Of a stretch of DNA of 64,000 nt, positions 31,883-60,492 are shown piece after piece. Source of the stretch: Candidatus Limnocylindria bacterium (GTDB taxonomy: Bacteria; Chloroflexota; Limnocylindria; QHBO01); contig JBIOTW010000033.1 in assembly GCA_044866355.1 (NCBI GenBank), forward strand, positions 13,373 through 77,372, written 5' to 3'. The first letter of the stretch is position 1, and the number at the start of each line of letters is the position of its first letter. The translations under genes were made by a program, and so were the position numbers. The notes beneath the pieces were generated by a model. That model searched no databases, had not been told where the DNA came from, and was given only the letters and a program-made list of their open reading frames with translations.

Positions 31883-31929
31883 CGGTCGAACAGCCTACCC
31901 GCTCGGATGGGGTAGGGTTCGATCGCCTC

Positions 31930-34023: not shown

Positions 34024-34026
34024 CCC

Positions 34027-35082: not shown

Positions 35083-35091
35083 GGTCGACCG

Positions 35092-35982: not shown

Positions 35983-36159
35983 GCCCGGCCGGGTTCGGCG
36001 TCGGGCCTGAGCCGCCCCCGAGCCGGGCCCACGCCGGGGCGTTGCCGGCGCGCACATGGGCCCAAGGTCCCGCGCTCCACGAACCATCGCCCCATGGGTT
36101 CGACCGCCGGCCGCCCGTAGGGTCGGAGCTGGACTTATCAGCTCTCGCGGGAGACCTCG

Positions 36160-38451: not shown

Positions 38452-38649
38452 CGACCACGCCCTGACCGCGCGATGACCACGCCCTGACCGAAGGGGAATC
38501 TCGCTCCGGGCCGGTTGAACCCTGGCAGCCGATCGGCCCGGGAGGTTCGTACCATGGGCTTGCGGCCCTCACGTCGGTACGGTGCAGACCGCTGGAGTCC
38601 GGTGCGGTCGCCCCGGCTACCCGGCAGCTGACGAGGTCAATCGCCCGAC

Positions 38650-41517: not shown

Positions 41518-41533
41518 TCCGGGCCGGCCGGGA

Positions 41534-42454: not shown

Positions 42455-42489
42455 GGAGCTCGACGGTAGCACGCGTAGAATCGCGGGCA

Positions 42490-47650: not shown

Positions 47651-48921
47651 AGATCGCCGTCGTTGGGCTGGGGCACATCGGTCTCCCACTGGCGGTCCAG
47701 TACGCCAGCCGTGGCCACCAGGTGATCGGCTGCGACGTCGACGCCCGGGTGGTGGAGGCCATCAACCGCGGGGAGTCGCCCCACGCCGACGAGCCGGTGC
47801 TGGCCGAGCGTGTCCCCCAGCTCGTGCGGGACGGCCTGCTGAGCGCTACGACCGACGACGAGGCCGGCGTCCGCCAGGCCGAGGTGGTGGTCGTCATCGT
47901 CCCGGTGGTCGTGGACGACGCGCGCGAGGTGGACTACTCGCACATCGACGCCGCCACTCGCGAGGTGGCGCGAGGGCTCCAGCCGGGAACCCTGGTCATC
48001 TACGAGACGACGCTTCCGATCGGGACGACACGGGACCGCCTGGGACCGATGCTGGAGGCCGGGTCCGGCCTCCAGCTGGACCGCGACTTCGCTCTGGCCT
48101 TCTCGCCGGAGCGGGTCCTCGTCGGCCGGGTCCTGCTGGACCTTCAGCGCTACCCGAAGATCGTGGGCGCTACCAGCCCTGAGGGCACGCGGCGGGCGGT
48201 GGATTTCTACACCGCGGTCCTGGAGCCAGGAACCGAGGTCCGGGCCATGGCCAGCGCCGAGGCCGCGGAGATGACGAAGCTGGCCGAGACGACGTACCGC
48301 GACGTGAACATCGCTCTCGCCAACGAGTTTGCGCAGGTCGCGGCGCGGCGCGGGATCGACGTGACGGAGGTCATCGCGGCGGCCAATTCCCAGCCGTACA
48401 GCCATATCCACCAGCCGGGGGTGGGAGTCGGCGGCCACTGCATCCCGGTTTACCCGCACCTGCTGTTCAGTGCCGAGCCCGGCCTGCAGCTTCCGCCCCT
48501 GTCCCGGGCGGTCAACGACGGGATGGCGGCCTACGCCGTGGGCCAGCTGGCGGAGGCCCTGGGCTCGCTCCAGGGGGAGTCGGTGCTGATCCTGGGAATC
48601 GGCTATCGGGGCGACGTCCAGGAGGACTTCTTCAGCAGCGCCTTCCTGCTCCGCGAAGCGCTGCAGGCCGGCGGCGCCCGCACATACGCGCACGACCCGT
48701 ACTTCGACGCCGACCACCTCCGCCATCGTGGGTTCGAGCCCTACGACCTGGCCGCTCCGCAACCCGTGCGCGCCGCGATCCTCCAGGCAGCCCACACGGC
48801 CTACCGCGACCTGGACCTCGCCTCGATCCCCGGACTGGAGGTGGTGCTGGACGGCCGAAACGCCCTGGACCGGGAGCGCGTTGAATCGGCCGGCCTCCGC
48901 TACCTGGGAGTCGGGCGCTGA
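47647..48921 (+). CDS. UDP-glucose/GDP-mannose dehydrogenase-family nucleotide-sugar 6-dehydrogenase, WbpA/WecC-like
   Basis: 424 aa; MKIAVVGLGHIGLPLAV, catalytic Cys region GVGVGGHCIPVYP. Confidence 0.85.
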   Translation: MKIAVVGLGHIGLPLAVQYASRGHQVIGCDVDARVVEAINRGESPHADEPVLAERVPQLVRDGLLSATTDDEAGVRQAEVVVVIVPVVVDDAREVDYSHIDAATREVARGLQPGTLVIYETTLPIGTTRDRLGPMLEAGSGLQLDRDFALAFSPERVLVGRVLLDLQRYPKIVGATSPEGTRRAVDFYTAVLEPGTEVRAMASAEAAEMTKLAETTYRDVNIALANEFAQVAARRGIDVTEVIAAANSQPYSHIHQPGVGVGGHCIPVYPHLLFSAEPGLQLPPLSRAVNDGMAAYAVGQLAEALGSLQGESVLILGIGYRGDVQEDFFSSAFLLREALQAGGARTYAHDPYFDADHLRHRGFEPYDLAAPQPVRAAILQAAHTAYRDLDLASIPGLEVVLDGRNALDRERVESAGLRYLGVGR

Positions 48922-48980: not shown

Positions 48981-49706
48981 GTGGTCCTGCCCACGTTCAA
49001 CGAGCGCGAGAACCTGCCTCAGGTCAGCGAAGCGATCTTGGCGGCCCTCCCCGAGGCTCGGCTCCTGGTCGTCGATGACCGCTCTCCCGACGGGACCGGG
49101 GATCTGGCCGACACACTGGCGGCCGCCAATCCGCGGATCGAGGTCCTCCATCGGCCGGCCAAGCAGGGCCTGGGGGCGGCCTATCGGGACGGATTCCGGC
49201 ACGTGCTCGACAAGCCCGGGACCGCCGCCATCATCCAGATGGACGCCGATCTCAGCCACGATCCAGCTGATCTGCCACGTCTGCTCGCGCCGCTCATGCG
49301 GGACGCGGACCTCGTCCTCGGCACCCGCTGGATGCCCGGGGGCGGGACCCGCGGCTGGCCGTGGCATCGGCGCCTGATCAGCCGCGGCGGAACGCTCTTT
49401 GCGCGAACGGTGCTTCTGCTTCCGTATCGCGACCTGACCGGCGGCTTCAAGGCCTGGCGCCGCGACCTGCTGGACGCGATCCGCCTCCGCGAGGCCGATG
49501 CCCATGGCTATGGGTTCCAGGTCGAAACGACCTGGTGGGCGCACCGCCGGCGAGCCGCGATCCGGGAGGTCCCGATCATCTTCCGTGAGCGGGTGGCGGG
49601 GACCTCGAAAATGACCGGCTCCATCGTCCGCGAGGCGATCATCCTCGTGCTCCGCCTCCGGTGGCAGGCCGTGGTACGGAGGCTCAGCCGGCCGCGTGGC
49701 GACTGA
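48981..49706 (+). CDS. GT2 polyprenyl-phosphate glycosyltransferase (Dpm1/Ppm1-like)
   Basis: GTG start; VVLPTFNERENL, DDRSPDGT, MDADLSHDP (DxD). Confidence 0.8.
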   Translation: MVLPTFNERENLPQVSEAILAALPEARLLVVDDRSPDGTGDLADTLAAANPRIEVLHRPAKQGLGAAYRDGFRHVLDKPGTAAIIQMDADLSHDPADLPRLLAPLMRDADLVLGTRWMPGGGTRGWPWHRRLISRGGTLFARTVLLLPYRDLTGGFKAWRRDLLDAIRLREADAHGYGFQVETTWWAHRRRAAIREVPIIFRERVAGTSKMTGSIVREAIILVLRLRWQAVVRRLSRPRGD

Positions 49707-49785
49707 TGAGCGCTTCGGGTAGCATGCGCGCTCGCCCGGCCCGTCCACCCGACGATCGTCCCTGCCTCGCGCTGACAGGAGCCGC

Positions 49786-51519
49786 ATGACCTACCGCAGC
49801 CGCCCCGCCCCCCGCCGCCGTCATCGGGCGCGCTGGCAGGACGAGCTTCGGACTCAGCGCCTGCTCGTCGCCGGGTTCGCGGCGGCGATTGCCATCGCCC
49901 TCGGCCTGTTCGGGATGACCGCGTGGATCGGTTACTACGACAGCCACCTGCGCCAGATGGCGATCGTCGAGGGCACAACCGTCACGCGCGAGGCGCTGGA
50001 CCTGCGCCAGGCGATCATCGGGGCCGAGCTGCAGGCCACCGGGCTGGACCTGAACGGCCAGCTCGGCGGGGCGCGCGACGCGGTTCTCCAGCAGCAACTG
50101 TCGGTGATCGTGGATCAGTTCAACAACCTCACCACCACCGCCATCGGCTCCACCGTGGACGGCCTGTTCCAGGCGACGCGGGCCGCCGACCTGGGGATCA
50201 GCGTCAGTGATGCCGAGATCGACGCCGAGATCGCGACCCGCCAGACCTTGCCGGCGCGCGTCCAGCTCTCGCTCATCTCGGTGGATGCCCTGCCCGAAGA
50301 CGCACCGATCGGCACCGAGCCGACCGAGGACGACTTCGCCCGAGCCGCGACCGAAGCCGATGACATCCGCGCCGAGCTCGACGCCGGCGGCGACGTCGCC
50401 GCCATCGCCGCCGAGCGATCCGACGATGCGGGATCGGCGCAGTTGGATGGTCTGGTCGGATGGGTGGAGGAGGCCGACGCCCAGTACGGCTACCTGTTCC
50501 CGCTGGCGGAGGGCGCCGAGGCCGGCGACCTGATCGGGCCATCCCGCACCGAGAACGGATTCGTCATCCTCCGCGTGGACGGCCGCACCGACGAGGGCCC
50601 CTTCACCAGCCTCCTCGACCTGCTCGCGTCGGCGCGGGTCACCGAAACGGACTATCGGTCGTACGTCGCCGACGAGCTCCAGCGCCGCGCGTTTCGTGCC
50701 TACTTCGAGCAGGAAGTCGTGGGCTCCCCGGCTCCCCAGCGCGAGATCGCGCAGATCATGATCCTGAACGACCAGGGCGCGCCGGTCCCCAAGCAGCGCC
50801 TTCGCCACCTGCTGGCCCAGCCGCTGCCCGGGGCGGAGGACCAGTCCGTGGCGACCGAGGCCGAGTGGGCGGCCGCGCTGGCCCGGGCGGAGGCCTGGCA
50901 TGCCGAAGTCCAGGAGCCGAACGCCGACTGGTTCGCGATAGCCATGCAGAGCGACGACCCGGGCTCGCGCACCAACGGCGGCGACCTGGGCTGGTATGAC
51001 CCGGCCACCGGCCAGTTCGTGCCGGAGTTCGAGGCCGCCGTGGCCCGGCTCGCGGTGGGGGAGATCAGCGAACCGATCCGCAGCCAGTTTGGCTACCACG
51101 TGATCCAGGTCACCGACCAGCGCACGACGGCCCTGGATTTCGCGCAGAACCTGATCGACGAGCTCCAGGCCGACCCGGATACGTTCGGTGCGGCGGCCCT
51201 GGCCAACAGCGAGGACTCCGCCACCCGGGCGGAGGAGGGATATGCCGGATGGGTGGCCCACTACGAGGAGACCGCGGGTCGGGAGGCGGCCATCTTCGCG
51301 CTGGAGGAGATCGGCGACATCAGCACCACCCCGGTGGTGGAGGGCAATCAGATCTGGATCTTCAAGCTCCTCAACTCGGTCGAGGCGCGCGCCATCGACA
51401 ACACGCGGCTGAGCACGATCCGGTCGACCGGCTACACCCGCTGGTACGACGAGCTGAAGGCGGGTGGACAGATCTGGATCGATCCGCAGCTCCAACTGGA
51501 GGCCGCCTCGGCGGCGTGA
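49786..51519 (+). CDS. Membrane-anchored peptidyl-prolyl cis-trans isomerase, parvulin (PpiC) type, SurA/PrsA-like
   Basis: 577 aa; N-terminal TM; long chaperone-like region; PpiC domain GGDLGWYDPATGQFVPEFEAAVARLAVGEISEPIRSQFGYHVIQV. Confidence 0.7.
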   Translation: MTYRSRPAPRRRHRARWQDELRTQRLLVAGFAAAIAIALGLFGMTAWIGYYDSHLRQMAIVEGTTVTREALDLRQAIIGAELQATGLDLNGQLGGARDAVLQQQLSVIVDQFNNLTTTAIGSTVDGLFQATRAADLGISVSDAEIDAEIATRQTLPARVQLSLISVDALPEDAPIGTEPTEDDFARAATEADDIRAELDAGGDVAAIAAERSDDAGSAQLDGLVGWVEEADAQYGYLFPLAEGAEAGDLIGPSRTENGFVILRVDGRTDEGPFTSLLDLLASARVTETDYRSYVADELQRRAFRAYFEQEVVGSPAPQREIAQIMILNDQGAPVPKQRLRHLLAQPLPGAEDQSVATEAEWAAALARAEAWHAEVQEPNADWFAIAMQSDDPGSRTNGGDLGWYDPATGQFVPEFEAAVARLAVGEISEPIRSQFGYHVIQVTDQRTTALDFAQNLIDELQADPDTFGAAALANSEDSATRAEEGYAGWVAHYEETAGREAAIFALEEIGDISTTPVVEGNQIWIFKLLNSVEARAIDNTRLSTIRSTGYTRWYDELKAGGQIWIDPQLQLEAASAA

Positions 51520-51530
51520 GCGAGGCCAGG

Positions 51531-52652
51531 ATGACCGATGCCTGGCGCGGACTCGACGGGCTCCTGGCTGCCGCCGGGCTGGATGCGGCCGACGGCGTGC
51601 AGGCCGTCTCGGCCGATCGGCTGGTGGCGGTTGCGTTTGACCCGAGCCTGCCGCTCCTGATTTTGGCCACGGCTGCCTCAGCGGGGGATGCCGCCCCCGC
51701 GCTGCCTGGTCGCCATGCTCGATCCGGCCCGCACGCGGTCCTGGCCGCCCTCTACCCGCACGGCCATCCGATCCGTCCCCTGCCCGGCGGTGAGCCCACC
51801 ACCATCGATGCGGTGGACGACGCGATGCTGCGCGCCGGCGACTGGTTCGTCCCGCCGCTGCCCCCCGACGACAACCTCGCCTCCCCGCATGGCATGGCCG
51901 CCATCAGTGCGCGGTTGCGGGCGCCGGACGGCTGCCCGTGGGATCGGCGCCAGGACCACCGCAGCCTGCGGACCTATCTTCTCGAGGAAGCCTACGAGAC
52001 GGTGGACGCCATCGAGCGTGGCAACCCGGCGGACCTCGCCGAGGAGCTCGGCGACCTGTTCCTGCAGGTCGTCCTCCACGCCCAACTGGCAGCCGAGGAA
52101 GGCCATTTCGATCTGACCGATGTGTACCGGACCCTGGGAGCCAAGATCGTCCGGCGCCATCCGCACGTCTTCGGGGGCCTGGCCGTGAGCGGCGTCGAGC
52201 AGGTGCTCCGGAACTGGGAGACGATCAAGTCCGCCGAACGCGAGGAGGCGGGTCGGCCGCCCGCCTCGTTCGAGGGCGTGGCCCGCGCGTTGCCGGCACT
52301 GCCGGCCAGCCGGGAGATCCAGGAGCGGGCCTCGGCCCTGGGCTGGGACTGGCCGGCGATCGAGGGCGTGTGGGACAAGGTCGGCGAGGAGCTGGACGAG
52401 CTTCGGGCCGCGGCTGCGGACTCGCCGATGCCAGAGGCACGCCTGCACGAGCTCGGCGACGTCCTGTTCGCCCTCGTCAACCTGGGCCGCTGGCTGGGAG
52501 TCGATCCCGAGGAGGCGCTGCGGTCCGCCAACCGACGCTGGGTCGAGCGCTGGGCGGCTGTCGAAGCGCTGGCGGCCGAGCGTGGGCTGGTCCTCGCCGA
52601 CCTGGATGCCGAGGGCAAGGACCGGCTGTGGAACGAGGTCAAGGCCAGGTGA
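51531..52652 (+). CDS. mazG: Nucleoside triphosphate pyrophosphohydrolase MazG (tandem MazG domains)
   Basis: ATG at 51531 in the context tgaccgATG; EExxE motifs LLEEAYETVDAIE and DELGDVLFALVNLGR. The upstream part of the track ORF overlaps the PPIase. Confidence 0.8.
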   Translation: MTDAWRGLDGLLAAAGLDAADGVQAVSADRLVAVAFDPSLPLLILATAASAGDAAPALPGRHARSGPHAVLAALYPHGHPIRPLPGGEPTTIDAVDDAMLRAGDWFVPPLPPDDNLASPHGMAAISARLRAPDGCPWDRRQDHRSLRTYLLEEAYETVDAIERGNPADLAEELGDLFLQVVLHAQLAAEEGHFDLTDVYRTLGAKIVRRHPHVFGGLAVSGVEQVLRNWETIKSAEREEAGRPPASFEGVARALPALPASREIQERASALGWDWPAIEGVWDKVGEELDELRAAAADSPMPEARLHELGDVLFALVNLGRWLGVDPEEALRSANRRWVERWAAVEALAAERGLVLADLDAEGKDRLWNEVKAR

Positions 52653-53854
52653 GCGAGACTCGCGTCGCGCTGGTGGCCCACGCGTCGCTCCCCGACGACA
52701 CGCGGGTGCGACGCCAGGCCGAGGCCCTGCGCGACGCGGGCTATGGCGTGGACCTGTTCGGGCTGCGCGATCCTGGGCAGCCGGAGGTCGAGGAGTGGCG
52801 CGGGCTGCGCATCGTGCGGCTGCCGGTCCGGCGTTCGTTCACCGGCTTCGCGGGGCACCTGGCCGAGTACCTGGCCTTCGCGAGCCTGGCCGCCGTCCGG
52901 CTGGCCGCCGAGCATCGGCAGCGGCGGTACCGGCTGGTGCAGGTAGCGACCCTACCCGACTTTCTCGCCTTCGCCGCGCTGCCCGTTCGGCTGACCGGCG
53001 TTCCGCTGCTCCTCGACCTGCACGAGGACATGCCGGCATTCTTCCGAGACCGGTTCGACAGCCCGGTCCTGCTGCCCCTGGTGGGTATCGTGAACCTGAC
53101 GGCGCGGGCGAGCGCTGCCATCGCGGACGCGATCATCACCGTCCATGAGCCGCTTCGCGAGCTGGCAATCGGACGCGGCGTTCCGGCGCACCGCATCTCG
53201 GTCGTCATGGACAGCGCTGACGAGCGCCTCTTCGACCCTGCCCGCCATCCGCGTCGGCCGTTCATGGAGGACGGCCGGCTGCGGCTCATCCACCACAGCA
53301 ACCTGCAGCGGATCTACGGCCTCGACCTGGCGGTGGAAGCCGTGTCGCTGCTCCCCGCGGATCTGCACGCGCACCTCGACGTCTACGGCGACGGTCCGTT
53401 TCGCGGCCAGGTCGAGGCCGCCATCGCCCGCCACGACGTCGCCGACCGCGTCACGCTCCACGGCCGGGTTGCGCAGGACGCGCTGCCCGAGCTCCTGGCT
53501 TCGGCCGACATCGGTCTGGTCCCCACCCGGCCCGAACCGTACATGGCCTACTCGCTGTCGACCAAGCTGATCGAATACGTGGCCATGGGGGTTCCGGTCA
53601 TCGCCAGCGAGCTGCGGACCTTCCGGTCGCACTTCGACGCGGCGGCCGTCCGCTACGTTCCCGGCGGGGATCCGCGCGCGCTGGCGACGGCGATCGAGGC
53701 GCTTGCCGCCGACCCGGCCGGTGCCGAGGCGCTGGCCATCGAGGCCCGACGCCAGGCCGAGCCGTATGCCTGGGCCGTCCAGTCCGCCCACTACCTGGCC
53801 CTTGTCGACGGTCTCCTGGAGCGCGGTAGACTCGTCGCATCCGGCGGGGTGTAG
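52649..53854 (+). CDS. Glycosyltransferase family 4
   Basis: GTG overlapping the mazG stop; GT-B C-terminal domain with STKLIEYVAMGVPVIAS; annotated 3' end overlaps the tRNA 5' end by 10 nt. Confidence 0.75.
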   Translation: MSETRVALVAHASLPDDTRVRRQAEALRDAGYGVDLFGLRDPGQPEVEEWRGLRIVRLPVRRSFTGFAGHLAEYLAFASLAAVRLAAEHRQRRYRLVQVATLPDFLAFAALPVRLTGVPLLLDLHEDMPAFFRDRFDSPVLLPLVGIVNLTARASAAIADAIITVHEPLRELAIGRGVPAHRISVVMDSADERLFDPARHPRRPFMEDGRLRLIHHSNLQRIYGLDLAVEAVSLLPADLHAHLDVYGDGPFRGQVEAAIARHDVADRVTLHGRVAQDALPELLASADIGLVPTRPEPYMAYSLSTKLIEYVAMGVPVIASELRTFRSHFDAAAVRYVPGGDPRALATAIEALAADPAGAEALAIEARRQAEPYAWAVQSAHYLALVDGLLERGRLVASGGV

Positions 53855-53921
53855 CGCAGCCCGGTAGCGCACCTGCTTTGGGAGCAGGAGGTCGGCGGTT
53901 CGAATCCGCCCGCCCCGACCA
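53845..53921 (+). tRNA. tRNA-Pro (anticodon UGG)
   Basis: Hand-folded cloverleaf: acceptor CGGGGUG/CGCCCCG, D-arm GCGC/GCGC, anticodon stem CCUGC/GCAGG with loop UUUGGGA, T-arm GGCGG-UUCGAAU-CCGCC, discriminator A, encoded CCA; 77 nt. Confidence 0.85.
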
Positions 53922-53959
53922 TCCATTCGGTTCACCCAGCGGAGGATGACCGCGCACCG

Positions 53960-54646
53960 ATGACCACGGCCCATCCGAGCCATCCGCCGGCGCATGAGCT
54001 GGTGGTTCCCGAGGCGCCGATGGGAACCGGCTATCGGGTCGCCAAACGCGCCTTCGACGTCATCGGCTCCATCGTCGGCCTGGTTCTGGCGTCCCCCATC
54101 CTGCTTGGCGTGGGAGTCGCGGTCCGGCTCGACTCGCCCGGACCGATCCTCTTCCGCCAGGTCCGGCTGGGACTCGGTGGCCGGCCGTTCACGCTGTTGA
54201 AGTTTCGGACCATGCACCTCAGCGCGGACGAGCGCCGGCACCAGGAGCACATCCGCGAGCTGCTGCCCCCCGGTGGGACCGCCGACGAGGCCATCTGGAC
54301 GCCCATCGCGGCTGACCCTCGGGTCACGGGCATCGGCGCCTTCCTGCGGAAGTCACACCTCGACGAGCTGCCGCAGCTGGTCAACGTCCTGCGCGGCGAG
54401 ATGAGCCTGGTCGGTCCACGGCCCCCGATCCCCTACGAGGTTGAGCTATACGAGCCGTGGCACCTGCCTCGGCTGTCGGTGGCGCCGGGCCTGACGGGGC
54501 TGTGGCAGTCCCGCGGCTGGGGCCAGCTGAGCTTCGCGGAGGGCGTCAAGCTCGACCTCGAGTACGTCGAGCGCCGTTCGTTTGGGCTCGACCTGCGGAT
54601 CATCCTCCGGACGGCGTGGCAATACCTGTTGGGTCGCCAGTTCTAG
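53960..54646 (+). CDS. Bacterial sugar transferase (polyprenyl-phosphate phosphoglycosyl transferase, WbaP/WecA-like small type)
   Basis: 228 aa; KRAFDVIGSIVGLVLASPIL, RPFTLLKFRTM, PGLTGLWQ. Confidence 0.85.
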   Translation: MTTAHPSHPPAHELVVPEAPMGTGYRVAKRAFDVIGSIVGLVLASPILLGVGVAVRLDSPGPILFRQVRLGLGGRPFTLLKFRTMHLSADERRHQEHIRELLPPGGTADEAIWTPIAADPRVTGIGAFLRKSHLDELPQLVNVLRGEMSLVGPRPPIPYEVELYEPWHLPRLSVAPGLTGLWQSRGWGQLSFAEGVKLDLEYVERRSFGLDLRIILRTAWQYLLGRQF

Positions 54647-56171
54647 CCTTCGCCGCCTCGGCCCGGTCTGCCGGTTCGGCCGGTTCGGGCGCCTCCGCCG
54701 GCTTGGCCAGCGATCCAATCCCCAGCAGGAACCAGAACAGGAACGCGACCGTGTTCCCTTCCAGCAGCATGGTGGTGAAGGCCGCCACGCAGACGACCGC
54801 AGCCGCGGACACGATGCCGGCCGGGACACTGAATCGGCTTCCGCTCGCATGGCGCAGCGCGCGGATCGGGGCGAACAGTGCGGTGCCGATCATGGCCAGC
54901 AGGGCGGCGATCCCCAGCCCACCTCCCTCGACGGCCAGGTGCAGCCAGAAGTTGTCGACCGTGCGCTGCTCGCGAAGCAGGTCGTCCGTGCCGTACCGCT
55001 CGTGGATCGGGGATCCGAAGATGGACGCCGACGCGCCCCCATATCGGCCCGGCCCCACGCCGAGGAACCGATGCTCATCGATGATCGGCACCGCGTTGAT
55101 GACGAACAGGGTTCGCAGGTCGCGCCGATCCTTTACCGCCTGGATGCGATTGACCGTGGTGGCGTACGGATCGAAGCCCTGTGTCGCGCCGGTGAGGATG
55201 CCCTTCGGCATGACCACCGCCGTGGCGTACGCCAGCCCCAAGACCACGACCCACACTGCCAGCGCCCGCCGGTCGATGACGAGTGCCACCAGCCCGAAGC
55301 CAGCGGCCAGGCCAATCCAGGACCCGCGCGAGTAGGTCAGCAGCAGGGCCAGAGCCAGCGCGAAGGCCGTCCCCACCGTGATGCGCCATCCCCGTGAGCG
55401 CCAGTTCATGCGCACCAGCGAGAACATCGTGAACGGAACGGCCATGCCGATCAGGGTTCCCAGGATGTTGGGATCGTTCACCAGTGATCCGACGCGCAGC
55501 CCCTCCCCGGACATGCCCTCGACCGGCGTCACACCCAGGAGATCCGGCGTCAGGACGGCCTGGCCGATCGCCAGCACGGAGCCGAGGCCCACGAGGCCCA
55601 CGATCACCCACATCGTCTGGCGTGAGTCGGCGTGGGTGTAGCCCACCATCCTGGGCAGGTAGAAAAGGATCGTCGCGTCGAGGGTGAACAGAAGTCCCGC
55701 GACGGTGACGACCGGCGAAACCCCGTTTGCACCCGCAGAGATCAGGCTGATCAGCAGGAACACGCCCAGGGCCAACGTGAACGGATGGCGCAGCGCCGCG
55801 AGCAGCGTCCCGCGACGGGCTGCCACCACGGCGAGGGCGATCGTCAGCGCGACGAGCAGCGCCTCAGAAAAGAACCGGGCCACCGGCTGCAGGGCCTCGG
55901 GCAGGAGGCGCTGACCGGCGTACAGGTCGACGAGCGCCGGTGACAGGACAACCACCACCAGGACCGCCCGCGGCCACCGCAGCGAGGCCAATCCGAGCAG
56001 CAGGAGCAGACCGATGCCGGCCAGCAGGAAGGCCACGGCTGAGACCTGGGCCGCCACCAGGGCCAGAATGCCGAGGCCGATCGCGAGCCCGCCAACCAGC
56101 GGTCCGGACGGCGTCAGTACCCGGTTGGCGGCGGCAACCCCTCCACTCATCGGATCAACGCGGCGGACCAT
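54600..56171 (-). CDS. O-antigen ligase/polymerase-like (Wzy_C) polytopic membrane protein
   Basis: ~10-12 TM helices with the periplasmic-loop motif LTYSRGSWIGLAAG. Start placed at ATG 56169-56171 (alternative 56150). Confidence 0.6.
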   Translation of the reverse strand: MVRRVDPMSGGVAAANRVLTPSGPLVGGLAIGLGILALVAAQVSAVAFLLAGIGLLLLLGLASLRWPRAVLVVVVLSPALVDLYAGQRLLPEALQPVARFFSEALLVALTIALAVVAARRGTLLAALRHPFTLALGVFLLISLISAGANGVSPVVTVAGLLFTLDATILFYLPRMVGYTHADSRQTMWVIVGLVGLGSVLAIGQAVLTPDLLGVTPVEGMSGEGLRVGSLVNDPNILGTLIGMAVPFTMFSLVRMNWRSRGWRITVGTAFALALALLLTYSRGSWIGLAAGFGLVALVIDRRALAVWVVVLGLAYATAVVMPKGILTGATQGFDPYATTVNRIQAVKDRRDLRTLFVINAVPIIDEHRFLGVGPGRYGGASASIFGSPIHERYGTDDLLREQRTVDNFWLHLAVEGGGLGIAALLAMIGTALFAPIRALRHASGSRFSVPAGIVSAAAVVCVAAFTTMLLEGNTVAFLFWFLLGIGSLAKPAEAPEPAEPADRAEAAKARTGDPTGIATPSGG

Positions 56172-57627
56172 CGGCCGCTGATCCAAGATACCAGCCGACC
56201 AGCGCCGCTTCGCCGCCGAAGATGCGCGCCATCTCCTGGCGGACGGCGTCTCGCTGGGGGATAAGCAGGTAGTAGGTCTGCGGGTCAACCGGCAGGTCGA
56301 CGTATCCCGGCCAGCCCAACACCACCCGATCGACGTCCCCGGATGCGATCAGCGGCCCAAGGCTGGCCAGGTTGCCCGCCTGGGCCCGCGGGAAATCGGT
56401 CGTCACCGTCTGGGAAACGGCGTCCAGCAGCCCGGGAAGCGAGATCAGCAGGTTCGTGTTGGCGAACTTCTGGCGCAGGGCGAGCAGGAACTCCTGCTGG
56501 CGGGCCGCGCGCAGGAAGTCGTTCTGCTCCTCGACCGTCCCGTCGGCCAGGGTCAGCGTGCCGAGCCGAATCCGGGCATAGGCCAAGGCGTGTGCTCCGT
56601 CGTAGTGGTGGCACCCCTCTTCGAGAACGATTCCCTGCCCCTCCCAGGTTGGGCCGCCGTACTGGGGATCGGCCAGGACGCCGGGCAGGCAGAGGTCCAC
56701 GCCGCCAATCGCATCCACCAACGCGGCGAACCCCAGCAGGTCGACCCAGGCCACGTTGTGGATCTCGACGCCGAGATACAGGCCCACCGCCTGCCGCAAC
56801 ATATGCAGCCCGCAGTCCTCGCCCTCGGCCAATGACGGGCACCAGGTGGCCGGCTCCGCCTTCGCATCCGAGGCCAGCTGGTTGATCCGGCGTGGGAAGA
56901 TGCCGTCGGGGTACACGCTGCGGTCGGGGAGCGGGACGTACCCCGTATCGCGCGGGATGCTGACCATGGCCGCGGTCCGGGACACCGGATCGAGGCTGAC
57001 CACCATAATCGTGTCGGTCAGCTCGTCCGTCCGCCCGGGCCCGGCGTCGGACCCGATGAGCAGGATGTTGACCCGCTCGGTTCCCTCCCAGCGGTACTCG
57101 GGTGCGACCGGGTCCGCGTGCCCGAATACCGGCGGCGCCGTTTGGTCCGGCGGGGTGAAGATGCGGCCCAGGGCCACGTCGGCAGAGATCACTGCCACGC
57201 CGACCCACAGGTGCGTGGCAATGGTCACGACCATAAGCAGGCTCACCACCGTGACCGTCACCGCTGATCGCCGGGCGGTGGTCGCGACGGCATGTGCCTC
57301 CAGCGTGCGAGCGCGGTTTGCCGCCCCGGCCTGAGCAATGGCGATCACGCGCCAGACCATGAGCCCCAGGTTCAGGGCGAAGAGCGCCAGCAGCGCCCCC
57401 GGGAGGAGCAGCGTGCGCAGCAGCGTGTCGGTCCCCGCGGCAAGCCCTCCGAGCACCATGCCGATGAGGACCAGCACCGGGGCGGCGAACAGCAGGCCCA
57501 GCCGCGGCTGGCCGGCGTAGACCTGTCCCAGGCCAGGCACGATGAACGACAGCGCCGCGGCAAGCGCGGCGCTGGACCGCCGAATCCCCCGGCGGGCCGG
57601 GGGCGGGTGAGTCATCGGAGACACCAT
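56155..57627 (-). CDS. LytR-CpsA-Psr (LCP) family cell-wall glycopolymer ligase
   Basis: LCP core NILLIGSDAGPGRTDELTDTIMVVSLDPVSRTAAMVSIPRDT; N-terminal two-TM module with PGLGQVYAGQ; ATG 57625-57627. Confidence 0.8.
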   Translation of the reverse strand: MVSPMTHPPPARRGIRRSSAALAAALSFIVPGLGQVYAGQPRLGLLFAAPVLVLIGMVLGGLAAGTDTLLRTLLLPGALLALFALNLGLMVWRVIAIAQAGAANRARTLEAHAVATTARRSAVTVTVVSLLMVVTIATHLWVGVAVISADVALGRIFTPPDQTAPPVFGHADPVAPEYRWEGTERVNILLIGSDAGPGRTDELTDTIMVVSLDPVSRTAAMVSIPRDTGYVPLPDRSVYPDGIFPRRINQLASDAKAEPATWCPSLAEGEDCGLHMLRQAVGLYLGVEIHNVAWVDLLGFAALVDAIGGVDLCLPGVLADPQYGGPTWEGQGIVLEEGCHHYDGAHALAYARIRLGTLTLADGTVEEQNDFLRAARQQEFLLALRQKFANTNLLISLPGLLDAVSQTVTTDFPRAQAGNLASLGPLIASGDVDRVVLGWPGYVDLPVDPQTYYLLIPQRDAVRQEMARIFGGEAALVGWYLGSAADGPPR

Positions 57628-57786
57628 GAACCGGGGTCTGGGGGGAGCGGGAGGCCGAGTATAGCAAGGGACGCTCGGGCGCCCAGAAGTGTTGCCAGAG
57701 CGCACCGATTGGGGGGTACGGACGGGTTAGTACCTTTGCGCCCGTCGTCGGGCCGCTCCCATACTGTGGGAGGACCGAGACGGAGC

Positions 57787-59058
57787 GTGACGACCGAACT
57801 CATCTTCCTCATCGTGAGCGCCGCCGTGGCCGGGCTGATCGTGATCGCCGGCCTGTTCGCGTTGCTGTCTGGTCGGTCCACAACGTCCGAATCGGGCCTC
57901 GAGCCGGTGGGACCCGGCGCCACGACCGATGTCCCGCCTCGCGACAAGTACCTGTCAACCGCTGAGCCCGCTTCCCCGGCGCTGTCCTGGCTGGGCGCGG
58001 ACCGGTTCCGATCCACGGTTCGCGCCATCTGGTGGGCGACGATCGCCGGCGTCCTCATCAGCGTCGGCCTGACCGATGTGTTCGCGGAGTCCCAGTTCGA
58101 GATCTTCGCCCTGGGCGGGTTGGCGGTGATCGGCGTCGTGGTGTTCCACGAGCTTGTTCCGGAGCAGTGGCGGTCGACCGCGACCTCGGCTGCCGAAGTC
58201 GCCAGCGCCATCGGTCTGCTGGGTGCGCTGGTGATCCTTACCGGTCGAAGCGCGTCCCCGTTCGCTCCGCTCCTCGTCCTGCCGGTCCTGGGCGTCGCCC
58301 TCGGCGGCCGGCCGACCGCTGGCCTGGCCGCAGCTCTGGCCGCCAGCCTGGGCTTCGTGGTCGTGGTGGCGACGGACCCGAGTCGACCCTTCGCGGCGGC
58401 TGACCTGCTGCCCGCGGCGGTGGTATTGGGCGTGGTCTGGCTGGGGACCGTGTCGGCGGTCGTGTTCGCGTCCCAGCAGCGCCGACTCCAGGCTGAAACC
58501 CTCGCCCTGTCGGTCACCGATCCGCTGACCGGGCTCTTCAATCGGGCCCAGATCTACGTGGCTCTCGACCAGGAGGTGCGTCGCAGTCGGCGTTCACTGC
58601 GACCCTTCTGCCTGTTGATGGTCGACATGGACGGTCTGAAGGCGATCAACGACACGCTCGGCCACGAGCGCGGGGACGCGGCGATCCGCGGCATCGCGGC
58701 GGTGATCCGACGCTCGATCCGCACCGTGGACTCGGCGTACCGGTACGCGGGCGACGAGTTCGTGGTCCTGCTGCCCGAGACCGATTTTTCCGGCGCGTTC
58801 GTGGTCGCCGAGAAGATCCGCCAGGGCGCCGCCGACCTGAGCGCGACCCTGGCGCGCGAGGAGGCGCCCACCACGGTCAGCATCGGTCTCGTTTCCCACC
58901 CCGAGGATGGCTCCACCGATGAGGAGCTCATGCTCGCCGTGGATCGCTCCATGTACGCGGCCAAGGCCGGAGGCAAGAACCGCATCAGCGGCTATCCCCG
59001 GCCCCCCAGGGCCGCAACCCCGGCCGAGGCCGTCAGCCAGGTGTCTGCCCTGGGCTAG
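57787..59058 (+). CDS. Membrane-bound GGDEF-domain diguanylate cyclase (AGDEF variant)
   Basis: GTG 57787 with GGAGGA ~12 nt upstream; ~6 TM helices; GGDEF domain with RYAGDEFVVLLPE, product-inhibition site RxxD present. Confidence 0.75.
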   Translation: MTTELIFLIVSAAVAGLIVIAGLFALLSGRSTTSESGLEPVGPGATTDVPPRDKYLSTAEPASPALSWLGADRFRSTVRAIWWATIAGVLISVGLTDVFAESQFEIFALGGLAVIGVVVFHELVPEQWRSTATSAAEVASAIGLLGALVILTGRSASPFAPLLVLPVLGVALGGRPTAGLAAALAASLGFVVVVATDPSRPFAAADLLPAAVVLGVVWLGTVSAVVFASQQRRLQAETLALSVTDPLTGLFNRAQIYVALDQEVRRSRRSLRPFCLLMVDMDGLKAINDTLGHERGDAAIRGIAAVIRRSIRTVDSAYRYAGDEFVVLLPETDFSGAFVVAEKIRQGAADLSATLAREEAPTTVSIGLVSHPEDGSTDEELMLAVDRSMYAAKAGGKNRISGYPRPPRAATPAEAVSQVSALG

Positions 59059-59130
59059 TTGAGCCCTTCGGTATACTCGCGGGCCGCTGGGTGGACTGAG
59101 CCGCCATCCGGCGATGGCCAGGGAGGGGCC

Positions 59131-60492
59131 GTGGACCAAGCTGCTGGAAGACGTCCGAATGCGCGCGCGCCGCTGGCGGCTTTCTTCTCGTTCGTCCTAC
59201 CGGGATTGGGTCAGGCCTACAACCGCCAGTTTCGCCTCGCCCTGCTGCTCGGCCTGCCCGCGGCCGTGCTTGGCTGGTTGGTGGCAGCCGCCGTCGGGCG
59301 CGGCGGGGAGGCGGTGGCAGCGCTTCTCGACGTCCGGGTCCTGGTCGCGATCATCCTCCTCAATCTCGGACTGCTCGGCTGGCGGGCGGTCGCCATCTAC
59401 CAGGCGCATGCGGCCCGTGAGGCGCCCGCCCTGCGGCGCTGGACGACGTGGGCGACCGCGGCCCTCCTGCTCGCGACCGTCGGCATGCACCTGGTGCCGG
59501 CCTGGTACGCAACCGCGACCATCGACACCCTGAACACAGTCTCGCTGGGCGGCGGGGGAGGGGGAGGACTCCTGGACGCGAGCGAGGTCCGGGAGCCACG
59601 CCGCAGCGGTACCGTCCCGCCGTCGGCGTACCCCGAGCCGGAGCCGGTACCAGCCGGCCTCTCAGGTCGCTTCACGGTGCTGCTGGTGGGCGTCGACGTT
59701 GGCCCCGGCCGCCGGACCTACAACACCGACACGATGATCGTGGCCACCCTGGATCCCCAATCGGGTGCATCGCTGATCTCCATTCCGCGCGACACGTTTG
59801 CGACTCCGATGGGGGACGGGCGCGTCTACAACGCCAAGCTGAATTCGCTGTGGGCCTACGCGCGCCTCGATCCCACCACCTACCCGCTTGGCGGGCCCGA
59901 GACGCTCAAGGCGGCCGTTGGCGCGCTGCTCGGGACGGAGATCGACTACATCGCCGCCGTTGACTTCCTGGGCTTCACGAGCGCGGTGGATGCCGTCGGG
60001 GGAGTGGACGTCACGGTCGAGCGAGCGGTCCACGATTACGCGTACCCGGACGAGTTCAACAACGTCGTCGGCTTCCACATCGAGCCGGGCACCCATCACA
60101 TGGACGGCTACACGGCTCTGGCCTTCGCCCGTTCGCGCCTGGGGGCGGGAGACAACGACTTCACCCGGGCCGACCGCCAGCAGCGGGTAATCGAGGCCCT
60201 GGGTACGCAGATGCGACGCGGAGGATGGCTCCTGAACCTGCCTTCGCTGTTGAACGCCGTCGGCGACGCGGTGGCCACCGATATTCCCGTCGAGCTCCTG
60301 CCCCACGTGGCTCGTGCTCTGCTCGACGCGGACCTGTCGCACATCCAACGCCTGGTCATCGAGCGCCCGCTGGTCTATTCCGACACGCTGACTGATGGCA
60401 CGTACGTCCTCATTCCCGACCTGGAGGCCATACGGGCGGCCGTCCACGACCTGCTGTCCGTTCACCGGGCGCACGTCCCAACCCCCGACTGA
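59131..60492 (+). CDS. LCP family protein, paralog of 56155-57627
   Basis: GTG 59131 with GGGAGGGG upstream; N-terminal FVLPGLGQAYNRQ two-TM module; LCP core FTVLLVGVDVGPGRRTYNTDTMIVATLDPQSGASLISIPRDT. Confidence 0.8.
   Translation: MDQAAGRRPNARAPLAAFFSFVLPGLGQAYNRQFRLALLLGLPAAVLGWLVAAAVGRGGEAVAALLDVRVLVAIILLNLGLLGWRAVAIYQAHAAREAPALRRWTTWATAALLLATVGMHLVPAWYATATIDTLNTVSLGGGGGGGLLDASEVREPRRSGTVPPSAYPEPEPVPAGLSGRFTVLLVGVDVGPGRRTYNTDTMIVATLDPQSGASLISIPRDTFATPMGDGRVYNAKLNSLWAYARLDPTTYPLGGPETLKAAVGALLGTEIDYIAAVDFLGFTSAVDAVGGVDVTVERAVHDYAYPDEFNNVVGFHIEPGTHHMDGYTALAFARSRLGAGDNDFTRADRQQRVIEALGTQMRRGGWLLNLPSLLNAVGDAVATDIPVELLPHVARALLDADLSHIQRLVIERPLVYSDTLTDGTYVLIPDLEAIRAAVHDLLSVHRAHVPTPD

What the first reader, a model, noticed from the sequence alone, without database searches (positions are those of the whole stretch)
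48981..60492. Envelope glycopolymer locus: GT2, GT4, initiating transferase, Wzy-like polymerase and two LCP ligases with a GGDEF cyclase wedged between the LCP paralogs
Together with the sugar pathway above, this is a self-contained synthesis, polymerisation and attachment system for a secondary cell-wall polymer. A membrane GGDEF protein lies between the two LCP genes, and a GGDEF+HD-GYP enzyme lies 30 kb upstream. This suggests c-di-GMP control of wall-polymer attachment, which is not established for LCP systems. A SurA-like PPIase and MazG are embedded in the same gene string.
Basis: inference. Interest (0 to 1): 0.5.

Follow-up and report, generated by a model that had tools for sequence, protein, structure and literature searches.

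The report
Wall-polymer genes beside a diguanylate cyclase
This stretch of an uncultured soil Chloroflexota (Limnocylindria) genome carries ordinary genes for building a sugar polymer and fastening it to the cell wall, and nothing tested shows that the signalling enzyme lying between the two fastening genes controls them.

Summary
They are GT2, a SurA-like PPIase, MazG, GT4, a Bac_transf initiating transferase, a Wzy_C protein, two LCP ligases and a membrane GGDEF protein between them. Four details need correcting. Wzy and LCP1 are on the minus strand, divergent from GGDEF. A tRNA-Pro interrupts the string. The cyclase motif is AGDEF. No flippase lies in the window.

The organism is a Limnocylindria (Chloroflexota). 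The polymer genes most resemble a Wzy-type, teichuronic-acid-like pathway built on a diacetamido-hexuronic acid.

Comparison with 35 related loci shows a class-wide housekeeping backbone with polymer modules inserted into it. In the main clade, GGDEF is followed by CysMet in 22/22 loci, PucR in 19/19 and GlnA in 16/17. An LCP lies upstream in 23/25 and downstream in only 12/23. Deeper relatives of the cyclase have no LCP nearby (0/4).

LCP1, GGDEF, LCP2 and CysMet each have their own conserved -10 box. No PilZ domain, riboswitch or other c-di-GMP receptor is present.

The locus is a new member of a known kind. c-di-GMP control of LCP attachment remains an untested idea based on adjacency. Interest is low to moderate.

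The parts
43853..44455 (+). Hexapeptide-repeat sugar N-acetyltransferase (WbpD/NeuD-like). First gene of the nucleotide-sugar operon. A -10 box TAGAAT lies at 43826.
   Evidence: Pfam Hexapep; NCBIfam NeuD/PglB/VioB subfamily as best hit, below cutoff; -10 box
44452..45552 (+). Non-hydrolysing UDP-GlcNAc 2-epimerase (WecB). GTGA overlap with the preceding gene.
   Evidence: Pfam Epimerase_2, 298 bits; TIGR00236 equivalog, 256 bits against a cutoff of 210; start codon
45549..46655 (+). DegT/DnrJ/EryC1 sugar aminotransferase
   Evidence: Pfam PF01041, 428 bits; 4-nt overlap
46652..47650 (+). GFO/IDH/MocA oxidoreductase. Best match is UDP-GlcNAc 3-dehydrogenase.
   Evidence: Pfam; NF040723, 277 bits, below the equivalog cutoff
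47647..48921 (+). NDP-sugar 6-dehydrogenase (closest to UDP-ManNAc dehydrogenase)
   Evidence: Pfam UDPG_MGDP_dh N, central and C domains; TIGR03026 subfamily passes its cutoff
48981..49706 (+). Small GT2, of the polyprenyl-phosphate sugar synthase type
   Evidence: PF00535, 105 bits; best NCBIfam hits are PpgS, AglJ, dolichyl-P hexose transferase and ArnC, all below cutoff
49786..51519 (+). Membrane-anchored SurA_N + PPIC parvulin foldase (PrsA/SurA-like). Housekeeping backbone gene.
   Evidence: Pfam; single N-terminal TM helix; conserved in relatives, including the deep relative L033
51531..52652 (+). MazG NTP pyrophosphohydrolase. Housekeeping backbone gene. Its stop overlaps the GT4 start by 4 nt.
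   Evidence: Pfam MazG, 108 bits; start and overlap; the same overlap in L001, L002, L083 and L084
52649..53854 (+). GT4 glycosyltransferase
   Evidence: Pfam Glyco_trans_1_4, Glyco_trans_4_4 and Glycos_transf_1
53845..53921 (+). tRNA-Pro (anticodon TGG), with a -10 box TAGACT at 53827-53832
   Evidence: ARAGORN; Rfam RF00005, 68 bits; -10 box
53960..54646 (+). Small polyprenyl-phosphate glycosyl-1-phosphate transferase (initiating transferase, Bac_transf)
   Evidence: PF02397, 200 bits; TIGR03025, 261 bits. Replaced by PF00953 at the same position in L002, L008, L016, L020 and L021.
54600..56171 (-). Wzy_C-domain polytopic membrane protein (putative polymerase). Its start overlaps the LCP1 stop.
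   Evidence: PF04932, 56.7 bits against a cutoff of 31.7; about 10-12 hydrophobic segments; start codons
56155..57615 (-). LCP1: LytR-CpsA-Psr glycopolymer ligase with an N-terminal multi-TM region (PGLGQ motif)
   Evidence: PF03816. 35% identical to LCP2 over the full length, with TDT, SIPRD and R..RQQ motifs. Start set at 57615 because the upstream ATG is out of frame in L001.
57658..57663 (-). Extended -10 box TGCTATACT for LCP1, conserved in relatives
57728..57765 (+). GGDEF promoter region: invariant 15-mer TAGTACCTTTGCGCC (contains a -35-like TTGCGC), an 18-nt spacer, and the -10 box CATACT (TAGACT in relatives)
   Evidence: Alignment of 16 loci. The 12-mer occurs once per locus in 17 loci, always upstream of GGDEF. 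It is unique in the window at up to 3 mismatches.
57787..59058 (+). Membrane GGDEF protein: TM1, a disordered loop, a 6-helix bundle of unknown family, then a GGDEF domain with AGDEF and an RTVD I-site
   Evidence: PF00990 and TIGR00254; motifs; AF2 model, pLDDT 76; the N-terminal domain has no Pfam hit and matches only 33 clusters among 1.84 billion representatives
59072..59077 (+). -10 box TATACT (GGTATACTCG) for LCP2, 14 nt after the GGDEF stop, conserved in relatives
59131..60492 (+). LCP2: second LytR-CpsA-Psr ligase, paralog of LCP1
   Evidence: PF03816, 117 bits; matches solved LCP structures TagV, TagT, Cps2A and Lin1025; present downstream of GGDEF in only 12/23 related species
60553..61728 (+). 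Cys/Met-metabolism PLP enzyme. Backbone gene, not part of the polymer system. Has its own -10 box at 60538 and is probably leaderless.
   Evidence: PF01053, 420 bits; -10 box; follows GGDEF in 22/22 main-clade loci

Best explanation
The interval is part of a fragmented cell-wall glycopolymer pathway in an uncultured Limnocylindria (Chloroflexota). The pathway genes are inserted as modules into a housekeeping gene backbone that is conserved across the class.

Inferred mechanism, based on the established roles of these families:
1. A translationally coupled five-gene operon (43853-48921) converts UDP-GlcNAc into a UDP-2,3-diacetamido-2,3-dideoxy-hexuronic acid.
2. The Bac_transf enzyme primes undecaprenyl phosphate.
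3. The GT4 enzyme or enzymes extend the repeat unit.
4. A Wzx flippase encoded outside the window exports the repeat unit.
5. The Wzy_C protein polymerises it.
6. The two paralogous LCP phosphotransferases transfer the polymer from the lipid carrier onto peptidoglycan.
7. The small GT2 probably makes a polyprenyl-phosphate sugar used for decoration outside the cytoplasm.

The PPIase, MazG, tRNA-Pro, CysMet, PucR and GlnA genes are backbone genes, not pathway components.

The membrane GGDEF protein is also a backbone gene. It is probably an active, product-inhibited diguanylate cyclase. It has an AGDEF variant motif, but all other catalytic residues and the I-site are invariant. Its seven-helix sensor domain is lineage-specific, and it is transcribed from its own strongly conserved promoter. 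Its position next to the LCP genes most likely reflects conserved gene order rather than a dedicated regulatory circuit. Any c-di-GMP it makes most likely acts on targets not identifiable here.
For: - Domain identities.
- Taxonomy: named homologues and MAG titles.
- GTGA overlaps in the sugar operon and at MazG->GT4.
- LCP1-Wzy coupling.
- LCP catalytic motifs against solved LCP structures.
- A different initiating transferase family at the same position, PF02397 or PF00953.
- Flippase located beyond GlnA in relatives.
- Backbone against modules in the main clade: CysMet 22/22, PucR 19/19, GlnA 16/17, against LCP upstream 23/25, LCP downstream 12/23, Wzy 11/21, PF02397 transferase 10/21.
- In L014, MazG directly abuts GGDEF.
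- Deep relatives have 0/4 LCP neighbours and are flanked by AsnC, ResB, CysMet, GlnA, MreB and RadC.
- Separate conserved -10 boxes for LCP1, GGDEF, LCP2 and CysMet. All 7 TA[TG]A[CA]T sites in the window lie within 60 nt upstream of a gene or tRNA start, on the coding strand.
- Invariant catalytic and I-site residues across 52 orthologues.
- AGDEF can be catalytically active (VCA0965): PMC3974145, found.
- LCP proteins are already known in Chloroflexi: PMC2632651.
Against: - An LCP gene lies divergently next to the cyclase in 23/25 main-clade species. It stays there even where GT4, Wzy and the PF02397 transferase are missing. In the two species without LCP1, LCP2 is present. This is compatible with a selected association.
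- In the window's own clade only about 72-82 nt and no recognisable terminator separate GGDEF from LCP2. Read-through co-transcription cannot be excluded.
- The promoter assignments rest on sequence conservation only. No transcript data were available.
- The identities of the sugar product and of the acceptor (peptidoglycan, protein or released polymer) are inferred from family membership. Only WecB passes an equivalog cutoff.
Confidence: 0.68

Rival explanations
1. The membrane cyclase produces a local c-di-GMP pool that controls synthesis or LCP-mediated attachment of the wall polymer, transcriptionally or by binding a membrane component of the pathway.
For: - LCP|GGDEF adjacency is conserved in 23/25 species whose cyclases are only 47-85% identical.
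- GGDEF and LCP2 are 72-82 nt apart in the window clade.
- A second c-di-GMP enzyme, GGDEF+HD-GYP, lies in the same 64 kb.
- c-di-GMP control of exopolysaccharides in monoderms has precedent: Pss (PMC4125290) and Yda (PMC5422440).
Against: - Unrelated neighbours (CysMet, PucR, GlnA) are conserved even better.
- Deep relatives lack LCP neighbours.
- LCP2 is absent in 11/23 species and is separated from GGDEF by an opposite-strand DUF3048 gene in most sister-clade loci.
- Each gene has its own conserved -10 box.
- No PilZ or other receptor domain and no riboswitch is present.
- The LCP catalytic domain is extracytoplasmic, and the cytoplasmic parts of both LCPs are very short.
- No paper in the searched library links LCP and c-di-GMP mechanistically.
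Confidence: 0.13
2. The GGDEF protein of the window clade is not a cyclase. It is a c-di-GMP receptor of the PssE/YdaK type: a membrane protein with a degenerate active site and an intact I-site, which activates the adjacent glycopolymer machinery when c-di-GMP made elsewhere rises.
For: - The AGDEF motif replaces GGDEF throughout the window clade, while the RxxD I-site is intact.
- The protein is membrane-embedded and sits among polysaccharide genes, like PssE (PMC4125290) and YdaK (PMC5422440).
- Some AGDEF domains are inactive (NbdA preprint listed).
Against: - All other GTP- and metal-binding residues are invariant across 52 orthologues, including the AGDEF clade.
- The sister clade keeps canonical GGDEF in the same genomic position.
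- An AGDEF enzyme is a proven cyclase (PMC3974145).
- The gene has its own promoter and is not inside a synthase-type operon.
Confidence: 0.07
3. The polymer is not a peptidoglycan-anchored secondary wall polymer. It is instead a capsule, exopolysaccharide or protein-linked glycan. The LCPs would serve a different acceptor (for example protein glycosylation, as in Actinomyces, from my own knowledge) or a different polymer made elsewhere in the genome.
For: - Wzy_C/Bac_transf/GT4 sets are shared by capsule, EPS and O-antigen-like pathways (family descriptions).
- Polymer genes vary between species while LCP1 stays, and it then pairs with a WecA/TagO-type transferase.
- More GT4 genes and a Wzx lie beyond GlnA in relatives.
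Against: - LCP1 overlaps the Wzy start, so the two are translationally coupled.
- Cell-wall-binding CWB2 proteins are encoded next to the locus in relatives.
- LCP enzymes characterised so far mostly attach polymers to peptidoglycan (review PMC7831098, listed).
Confidence: 0.12

Closest known systems
Bacillus subtilis teichuronic acid pathway (tuaA-H) with TagTUV LCP ligases
   Same: - Monoderm-type anionic uronic-acid wall polymer.
- Bac_transf initiating transferase (TuaA-like), NDP-sugar dehydrogenase (TuaD family), GT4 and GT2 transferases, a Wzy_C-type polymerase (TuaE-like), and LCP enzymes for attachment.
- LCP2 aligns to the solved TagV and TagT structures. TuaD and TuaH appear among the NCBIfam hits.
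   Different: - All tua equivalog scores are far below cutoff.
- The sugar is predicted to be a 2,3-diacetamido-hexuronic acid, not glucuronic acid.
- The genes are split among housekeeping genes and a tRNA rather than forming one operon.
- The flippase lies outside the window.
- The LCP genes lie inside the locus.
UDP-2,3-diacetamido-2,3-dideoxy-uronic acid pathways (Pseudomonas WbpA/B/E/D/I; archaeal UDP-GlcNAc 3-dehydrogenase route)
   Same: The same five enzyme families are encoded contiguously with overlapping stop and start codons: 6-dehydrogenase, GFO-type 3-dehydrogenase, DegT aminotransferase, hexapeptide acetyltransferase and 2-epimerase.
   Different: Only the epimerase passes an equivalog cutoff. 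The best matches of the GFO enzyme and the dehydrogenase are archaeal-type models, below cutoff. The order of the steps and the gluco or manno configuration of the product are not determined.
PssE (Listeria pssA-E) and YdaK (Bacillus ydaJKLMN): membrane GGDEF proteins encoded in monoderm exopolysaccharide loci
   Same: A membrane-anchored GGDEF-domain protein with an intact I-site, encoded among polysaccharide genes of a monoderm (PMC4125290, PMC5422440).
   Different: - PssE and YdaK are catalytically dead receptors inside synthase-type operons.
- Here only the first Gly of the motif is changed and the sister clade is canonical.
- The gene has its own promoter.
- The pathway is Wzy-type.
- The adjacency is no tighter than adjacency to unrelated genes.
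Vibrio cholerae VCA0965 (AGDEF diguanylate cyclase)
   Same: An AGDEF active-site variant with the other catalytic residues intact. VCA0965 synthesises c-di-GMP (PMC3974145).
   Different: The sensor domain, the organism and the genomic context are unrelated.

Membership tests
LytR-CpsA-Psr (LCP) glycopolymer phosphotransferases (both LCP1 and LCP2) | LCP catalytic domain (PF03816) above the gathering score | tested here: met
   LCP1 84 bits and LCP2 117 bits against a cutoff of 24.6
LytR-CpsA-Psr (LCP) glycopolymer phosphotransferases (both LCP1 and LCP2) | Conserved Asp/Arg motifs of the pyrophosphate-binding site (xTDTxxV, SIPRD, RxR...DFxRxxRQQ) | tested here: met
   Present in both paralogs. 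LCP2 aligns through these motifs to Lin1025 (3owq) and TagV (3nxh, 6uf3).
LytR-CpsA-Psr (LCP) glycopolymer phosphotransferases (both LCP1 and LCP2) | N-terminal membrane anchor with an extracytoplasmic catalytic domain | tested here: met
   Three to four hydrophobic helices precede the domain in both proteins. The topology itself is inferred.
LytR-CpsA-Psr (LCP) glycopolymer phosphotransferases (both LCP1 and LCP2) | Transfer of a lipid-linked polymer to peptidoglycan | not testable with these tools
   Biochemical property
Wzx/Wzy-dependent glycopolymer assembly | Polyprenyl-phosphate initiating transferase | tested here: met
   PF02397, 200 bits; TIGR03025, 261 bits, just below its subfamily cutoff of 295
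Wzx/Wzy-dependent glycopolymer assembly | Wzy-type polymerase | tested here: met
   PF04932, 56.7 bits against a cutoff of 31.7. This domain also occurs in WaaL-type ligases, so the polymerase role is inferred.
Wzx/Wzy-dependent glycopolymer assembly | Wzx (Polysacc_synt) flippase in the locus | tested here: not met
   None in the window. In L001 and L083 a PF01943 gene lies about 7-9 kb beyond LCP2, past GlnA, which would fall outside this window.
Wzx/Wzy-dependent glycopolymer assembly | Chain-length regulator (PCP/Wzz) | tested here: not met
   No such domain in any scanned protein of the window or of L001, L002 or L083
Diguanylate cyclase (GGDEF domain) | GGDEF domain above curated cutoffs | tested here: met
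   PF00990, 133 bits; TIGR00254, 152 bits against a cutoff of 37; Foldseek matches to WspR, PleD and DgcR GGDEF domains
Diguanylate cyclase (GGDEF domain) | GG(D/E)EF active-site motif | tested here: not met
   AGDEF at residues 321-325 in the window and in all orthologues 70-96% identical to it. The 50%-identity clade has GGDEF. AGDEF is active in VCA0965 (PMC3974145).
Diguanylate cyclase (GGDEF domain) | Metal- and GTP-binding residues (DxD...K..ND...GD, R before the motif, K...K/R after it) | tested here: met
   Invariant columns D280, D282, K285, N288, D289, D297, R319, D323, E324, K393 and K397 across 52 sequences
Diguanylate cyclase (GGDEF domain) | RxxD inhibitory site five residues before the motif | tested here: met
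   RTVDSAYRYAGDEF. R312 and D315 are invariant.
Diguanylate cyclase (GGDEF domain) | c-di-GMP synthesis | not testable with these tools
   Enzymatic assay needed
c-di-GMP-controlled polysaccharide systems (Bcs, Pel, Alg, Pss, Yda type) | A c-di-GMP receptor module (PilZ, PelD-like, or degenerate GGDEF/EAL) in or fused to a biosynthesis protein | tested here: not met
   No such domain in any protein from 41.5 to 64 kb. The only I-site is in the GGDEF protein itself.
c-di-GMP-controlled polysaccharide systems (Bcs, Pel, Alg, Pss, Yda type) | GGDEF gene is part of the biosynthesis operon | tested here: inconclusive
   Own conserved -10 boxes for GGDEF and for LCP2, but there is no terminator between GGDEF and LCP2. 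In the sister clade an opposite-strand gene intervenes.
c-di-GMP-controlled polysaccharide systems (Bcs, Pel, Alg, Pss, Yda type) | c-di-GMP riboswitch upstream of pathway genes | tested here: not met
   An Rfam scan of the whole window at gathering thresholds found only the tRNA
UDP-2,3-diacetamido-2,3-dideoxy-hexuronic acid pathway | All five enzyme families encoded together | tested here: met
   Hexapep, Epimerase_2, DegT, GFO_IDH_MocA and UDPG_MGDP_dh are contiguous with 4-nt overlaps
UDP-2,3-diacetamido-2,3-dideoxy-hexuronic acid pathway | Equivalog-level identity of each enzyme | tested here: inconclusive
   Only WecB passes its equivalog cutoff. The others are best hits below cutoff.

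The most novel reading that the evidence does not exclude
In Limnocylindria, a lineage-specific seven-helix membrane diguanylate cyclase is functionally paired with the divergently transcribed LCP ligase. It would sense the state of the lipid-linked polymer or of the wall, and would tune glycopolymer attachment through c-di-GMP. That would be a second-messenger input into LCP-dependent wall assembly that has not been described in any bacterium.
Probability: 0.12. Interest if true: 0.65.

Novelty: new member of a known kind. Interest (0 to 1): 0.3.

Why it matters
Limnocylindria are abundant, uncultured soil and freshwater Chloroflexota whose cell envelope has not been characterised. The locus gives a concrete, testable prediction for their wall chemistry: an anionic polymer containing a diacetamido-uronic acid, attached by LCP enzymes.

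The analysis also shows why adjacency alone is weak evidence in lineages with strong long-range gene-order conservation. Here the same logic would link the cyclase to methionine and glutamine metabolism even more strongly than to LCP.

If the minority reading were true, it would be the first link between c-di-GMP and LCP-mediated wall-polymer attachment.

Tried and rejected
- The consensus promoter and terminator scan of 48-62 kb found nothing informative. The conserved -10 boxes emerged only from alignment of related loci.
- The Rfam scan found no riboswitch.
- A word-indexed homologue search with the cyclase's membrane domain alone returned only fragments. The exhaustive HMMER search found just 33 clusters, all apparently of the same architecture, so no other output domains could be linked to this sensor.
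- The N-terminal domain has no Pfam match.
- Foldseek against the PDB matched only the GGDEF domain. The best full-length hit was ImcA (8wcn), with TM-score 0.34.
- The afdb50 library was unavailable.
- The GGTAC-N10-GTACC inverted repeat upstream of GGDEF was considered as an RNA hairpin or palindromic operator. This was rejected because the 5' half is not conserved and does not covary.
- An 'at least one LCP is always retained' constraint was considered. It was rejected as not significant: with independent loss rates of about 2/25 and 11/23, about one double loss is expected and none was observed.
- The 49 GGDEF-domain-only loci from other phyla had no LCP neighbour. Most are diderms, so this control is weak.
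- Literature searches for a link between LCP and c-di-GMP found co-citation only.

Full report
**Observation**

The window has 70% GC, so real genes were separated from spurious ORFs by third-position GC and frame plots.

- GT2, 48981-49706
- SurA_N/PPIC parvulin, 49786-51519
- MazG, 51531-52652
- GT4, 52649-53854
- Bac_transf initiating transferase, 53960-54646
- Wzy_C, 54600-56171
- LCP1, 56155-57615
- GGDEF, 57787-59058
- LCP2, 59131-60492

The GGDEF+HD-GYP protein 30 kb upstream is real. It lies at 26295-28079 on the minus strand and carries GGEEF, RxxD, HD and GYP motifs. The upstream sugar operon is also real.

Five corrections are needed:

1. Wzy and LCP1 are on the minus strand. The LCP1 stop overlaps the Wzy start. 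The pair diverges from GGDEF across 171 bp.
2. A tRNA-Pro(TGG) lies at 53845-53921.
3. The cyclase motif is AGDEF, with an intact RTVD I-site.
4. LCP2 most likely starts at GTG 59131, as the gene calls in relatives indicate.
5. No flippase or chain-length regulator is present anywhere in the window.

**Organism**

Close homologues of the cyclase (up to 96% identity) and the related contigs are named Candidatus Limnocylindria or Chloroflexota. LCP proteins are known to be common in Chloroflexi other than Dehalococcoides (PMC2632651).

**The polymer genes**

Five genes from 43853 to 48921 have GTGA stop/start overlaps. They encode a hexapeptide acetyltransferase, WecB, DegT, a GFO-type dehydrogenase and an NDP-sugar 6-dehydrogenase. 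WecB passes its equivalog cutoff. The GFO enzyme's best match is UDP-GlcNAc 3-dehydrogenase, and the dehydrogenase is closest to UDP-ManNAc dehydrogenase.

This is the enzyme set of the known UDP-2,3-diacetamido-2,3-dideoxy-hexuronic acid pathways. That assignment comes from established knowledge of the Wbp and archaeal routes. The product here is inferred.

The small GT2 resembles polyprenyl-phosphate sugar synthases. Together with Bac_transf, GT4, Wzy_C and two LCPs, the closest known system is a Wzy-type teichuronic-acid-like wall polymer with LCP attachment. Both LCPs keep the catalytic motifs of solved LCP enzymes, and they are 35% identical full-length paralogs.

**Comparative genomics**

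Loci around orthologues of the cyclase came from two sources. One was look-ups of contigs that encode identical proteins (L001, L002, L083, L084). The other was a scan of GTDB species representatives (L003-L082). L003-L033 contain full-length orthologues at 39-85% identity. L034-L082 match only the GGDEF domain and serve as weak controls.

Neighbours were mapped by tblastn and by an LCP profile HMM built from the loci. The whole order seen in the window recurs even at 50% cyclase identity:

GT2, PPIase, MazG, GT4, initiating transferase, Wzy(-), LCP1(-) | GGDEF, LCP2, CysMet, PucR, GlnA

The elements are not equally constant. Frequencies in the main clade:

| Neighbour of GGDEF | Loci with it / loci covered |
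|---|---|
| CysMet | 22/22 |
| PucR | 19/19 |
| GlnA | 16/17 |
| LCP upstream | 23/25 |
| LCP downstream | 12/23 |
| Wzy | 11/21 |
| PF02397 transferase | 10/21 |

Other findings from the comparison:

- In L014, MazG abuts GGDEF directly, with no polymer genes between them.
- Where LCP2 is missing, LCP1 is convergent with a WecA/TagO-type PF00953 transferase. This is a non-orthologous replacement of the initiating enzyme. It supports a wall-polymer role for LCP1 whichever polymer is made.
- In most sister-clade loci a minus-strand DUF3048 gene lies between GGDEF and LCP2 or CysMet.
- Five deeper relatives of the cyclase (39-42% identity, same membrane domain) have no LCP within 10 kb. They are flanked by AsnC-type regulators, ResB, CysMet, glutamine synthetases, MreB, RadC and Rce1.

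The cyclase therefore belongs to a housekeeping backbone. Polymer modules have been inserted into that backbone and exchanged. By the logic of adjacency, the cyclase would be linked at least as strongly to CysMet, PucR and GlnA as to LCP.

**Transcription signals**

Alignment of the intergenic regions shows conserved -10-like boxes:

- TGCTATACT, 42 nt before LCP1
- CATACT (TAGACT in relatives) before GGDEF
- GGTATACTCG, 14 nt after the GGDEF stop and 53 nt before LCP2
- TAGACT, 9 nt before CysMet

The motif TA[TG]A[CA]T occurs only 7 times on the two strands of the window, about the number expected by chance. However, all 7 lie within 60 nt upstream of a gene or tRNA start, on the coding strand. 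Such positions make up about 3% of the sequence. Several of the genes would be leaderless: RNase PH, CysMet and the IMPDH-like gene.

Upstream of the GGDEF -10 box lies an invariant 15-mer, TAGTACCTTTGCGCC. It contains a -35-like TTGCGC at an 18-nt spacing. Its 12-mer core occurs once per locus, always at this position, in 17 loci. It is unique in the window. It is retained in the loci that lack LCP1, so it belongs to the cyclase promoter.

These data indicate separate promoters for LCP1, GGDEF, LCP2 and CysMet. No terminator was found between GGDEF and LCP2, so read-through cannot be excluded.

**The cyclase**

The GGDEF domain is canonical apart from the first Gly. The metal-binding, GTP-binding and I-site residues are invariant in 52 orthologues, and the sister clade has GGDEF. 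An AGDEF enzyme, VCA0965, is a proven cyclase (PMC3974145). An active, product-inhibited cyclase is therefore the most likely reading.

The N-terminal part consists of one TM helix, a disordered loop and a six-helix bundle. It has no Pfam match and no structural relative in the PDB beyond other membrane cyclases at low TM-score. It matches only 33 clusters among 1.84 billion representative proteins. It is a lineage-specific sensor of unknown ligand.

**Tests of the c-di-GMP idea**

- No PilZ domain, PelD-like domain or degenerate GGDEF/EAL receptor is present in any locus protein.
- No c-di-GMP riboswitch is present.
- The cytoplasmic portions of both LCPs are very short.
- The literature library contains no mechanistic link between LCP and c-di-GMP.
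- The nearest precedents are PssE and YdaK. These are catalytically dead I-site receptors inside synthase-type exopolysaccharide operons of Firmicutes, and the present protein differs from them in its intact catalytic residues, its own promoter and its Wzy-type context.

**Verdict**

The wall-polymer interpretation is reasonable, but the locus is not self-contained. The regulatory hypothesis rests only on adjacency, and that adjacency is no stronger than adjacency to unrelated genes.

The locus is a new member of a known kind, a Wzy-type, LCP-attached anionic wall polymer in a poorly known phylum. The cyclase is an uncharacterised but conventional membrane diguanylate cyclase. I give about 12% to a genuine cyclase-LCP functional pairing.

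Noticed in passing
window 57728-57742: An invariant 15-mer, TAGTACCTTTGCGCC, lies 18 nt upstream of the GGDEF -10 box. Its 12-mer core occurs exactly once per locus, always at this position, in 17 related loci whose cyclases are only 47-85% identical. It is much more conserved than the flanking DNA, so it may be a transcription-factor site or a special -35 element.
   Followed up: partly
window 17838, 42476, 43826, 53827, 57663(-), 59072, 60538: All seven TA[TG]A[CA]T hexamers in the window sit within 60 nt upstream of a gene or tRNA start on the coding strand. For RNase PH, CysMet and the IMPDH-like gene the start codon follows 8-11 nt after the box, which suggests leaderless mRNAs in this lineage.
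   Followed up: partly
window 53845-53921: tRNA-Pro(TGG) overlaps the last 10 nt of the GT4 gene and has its own -10 box inside the GT4 coding sequence.
   Followed up: yes
L002 4795-5742; L008 7050-8156; L016 7068-8132; L020 6939-8165; L021 7337-8302: At the position of the window's PF02397 initiating transferase, these species carry a WecA/TagO-type PF00953 transferase. This is a non-orthologous replacement next to the conserved LCP1.
   Followed up: yes
L005 11747-12937(-), L008 11334-12503(-), and the same position in L009, L014, L016, L020, L022: A DUF3048 (N- and C-domain) secreted or lipoprotein-like gene with a Pro/Ser/Thr-rich linker lies on the opposite strand between GGDEF and LCP2 or CysMet in the sister clade. 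It is absent from the window clade.
   Followed up: partly
window 51531-52652 / 52649-53854: The MazG stop overlaps the GT4 start by 4 nt (GTGA), and the same overlap occurs in L001, L002, L083 and L084. A housekeeping NTP pyrophosphohydrolase therefore appears translationally coupled to a glycosyltransferase.
   Followed up: partly
alignment A1, columns 600-650 (sister-clade cyclases such as P0069, P0106, P0116): Sister-clade cyclases carry a C-terminal extension of about 130 residues. It is low-complexity but ends in a conserved motif, RSFDPDHQIRRAMDAFL. The window clade (AGDEF) lacks this extension entirely.
   Followed up: no
window 4773-6157: A stretch of about 1.4 kb has lower GC (0.66) and no codon-position bias in any frame. 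The one long ORF tested there (4806-6008, + strand) has no Pfam hit, and the Rfam scan found nothing there. It may be non-coding, a decayed gene or foreign DNA.
   Followed up: partly
L004, L008, L024: These contigs are titled Steroidobacteraceae, Candidatus Binatia and Candidatus Angelobacter. They nevertheless carry the Limnocylindria-type LCP1|GGDEF-CysMet order, with cyclases 48-53% identical to the window's. They are probably mis-binned contigs.
   Followed up: no
window 26295-35982 and L032 8347-14410: In the window, the GGDEF+HD-GYP gene lies near Rce1-like, RadC, MreB and MreC genes. In the deep relative L032, the membrane-GGDEF family gene sits directly between MreB and RadC/Rce1-like genes. 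c-di-GMP genes and cell-shape genes therefore recur together in this lineage.
   Followed up: no
window 36121-42736; L002 17043-21420; L008 3994-6987: The window encodes large secreted proteins next to the locus: a PKD-domain protein and a 961-aa GH18 protein, followed by a further GT4 on the minus strand. Relatives encode CWB2 (cell-wall-binding repeat 2) proteins near the locus, including a subtilase, which fits a wall polymer acting as an anchor for surface proteins.
   Followed up: partly
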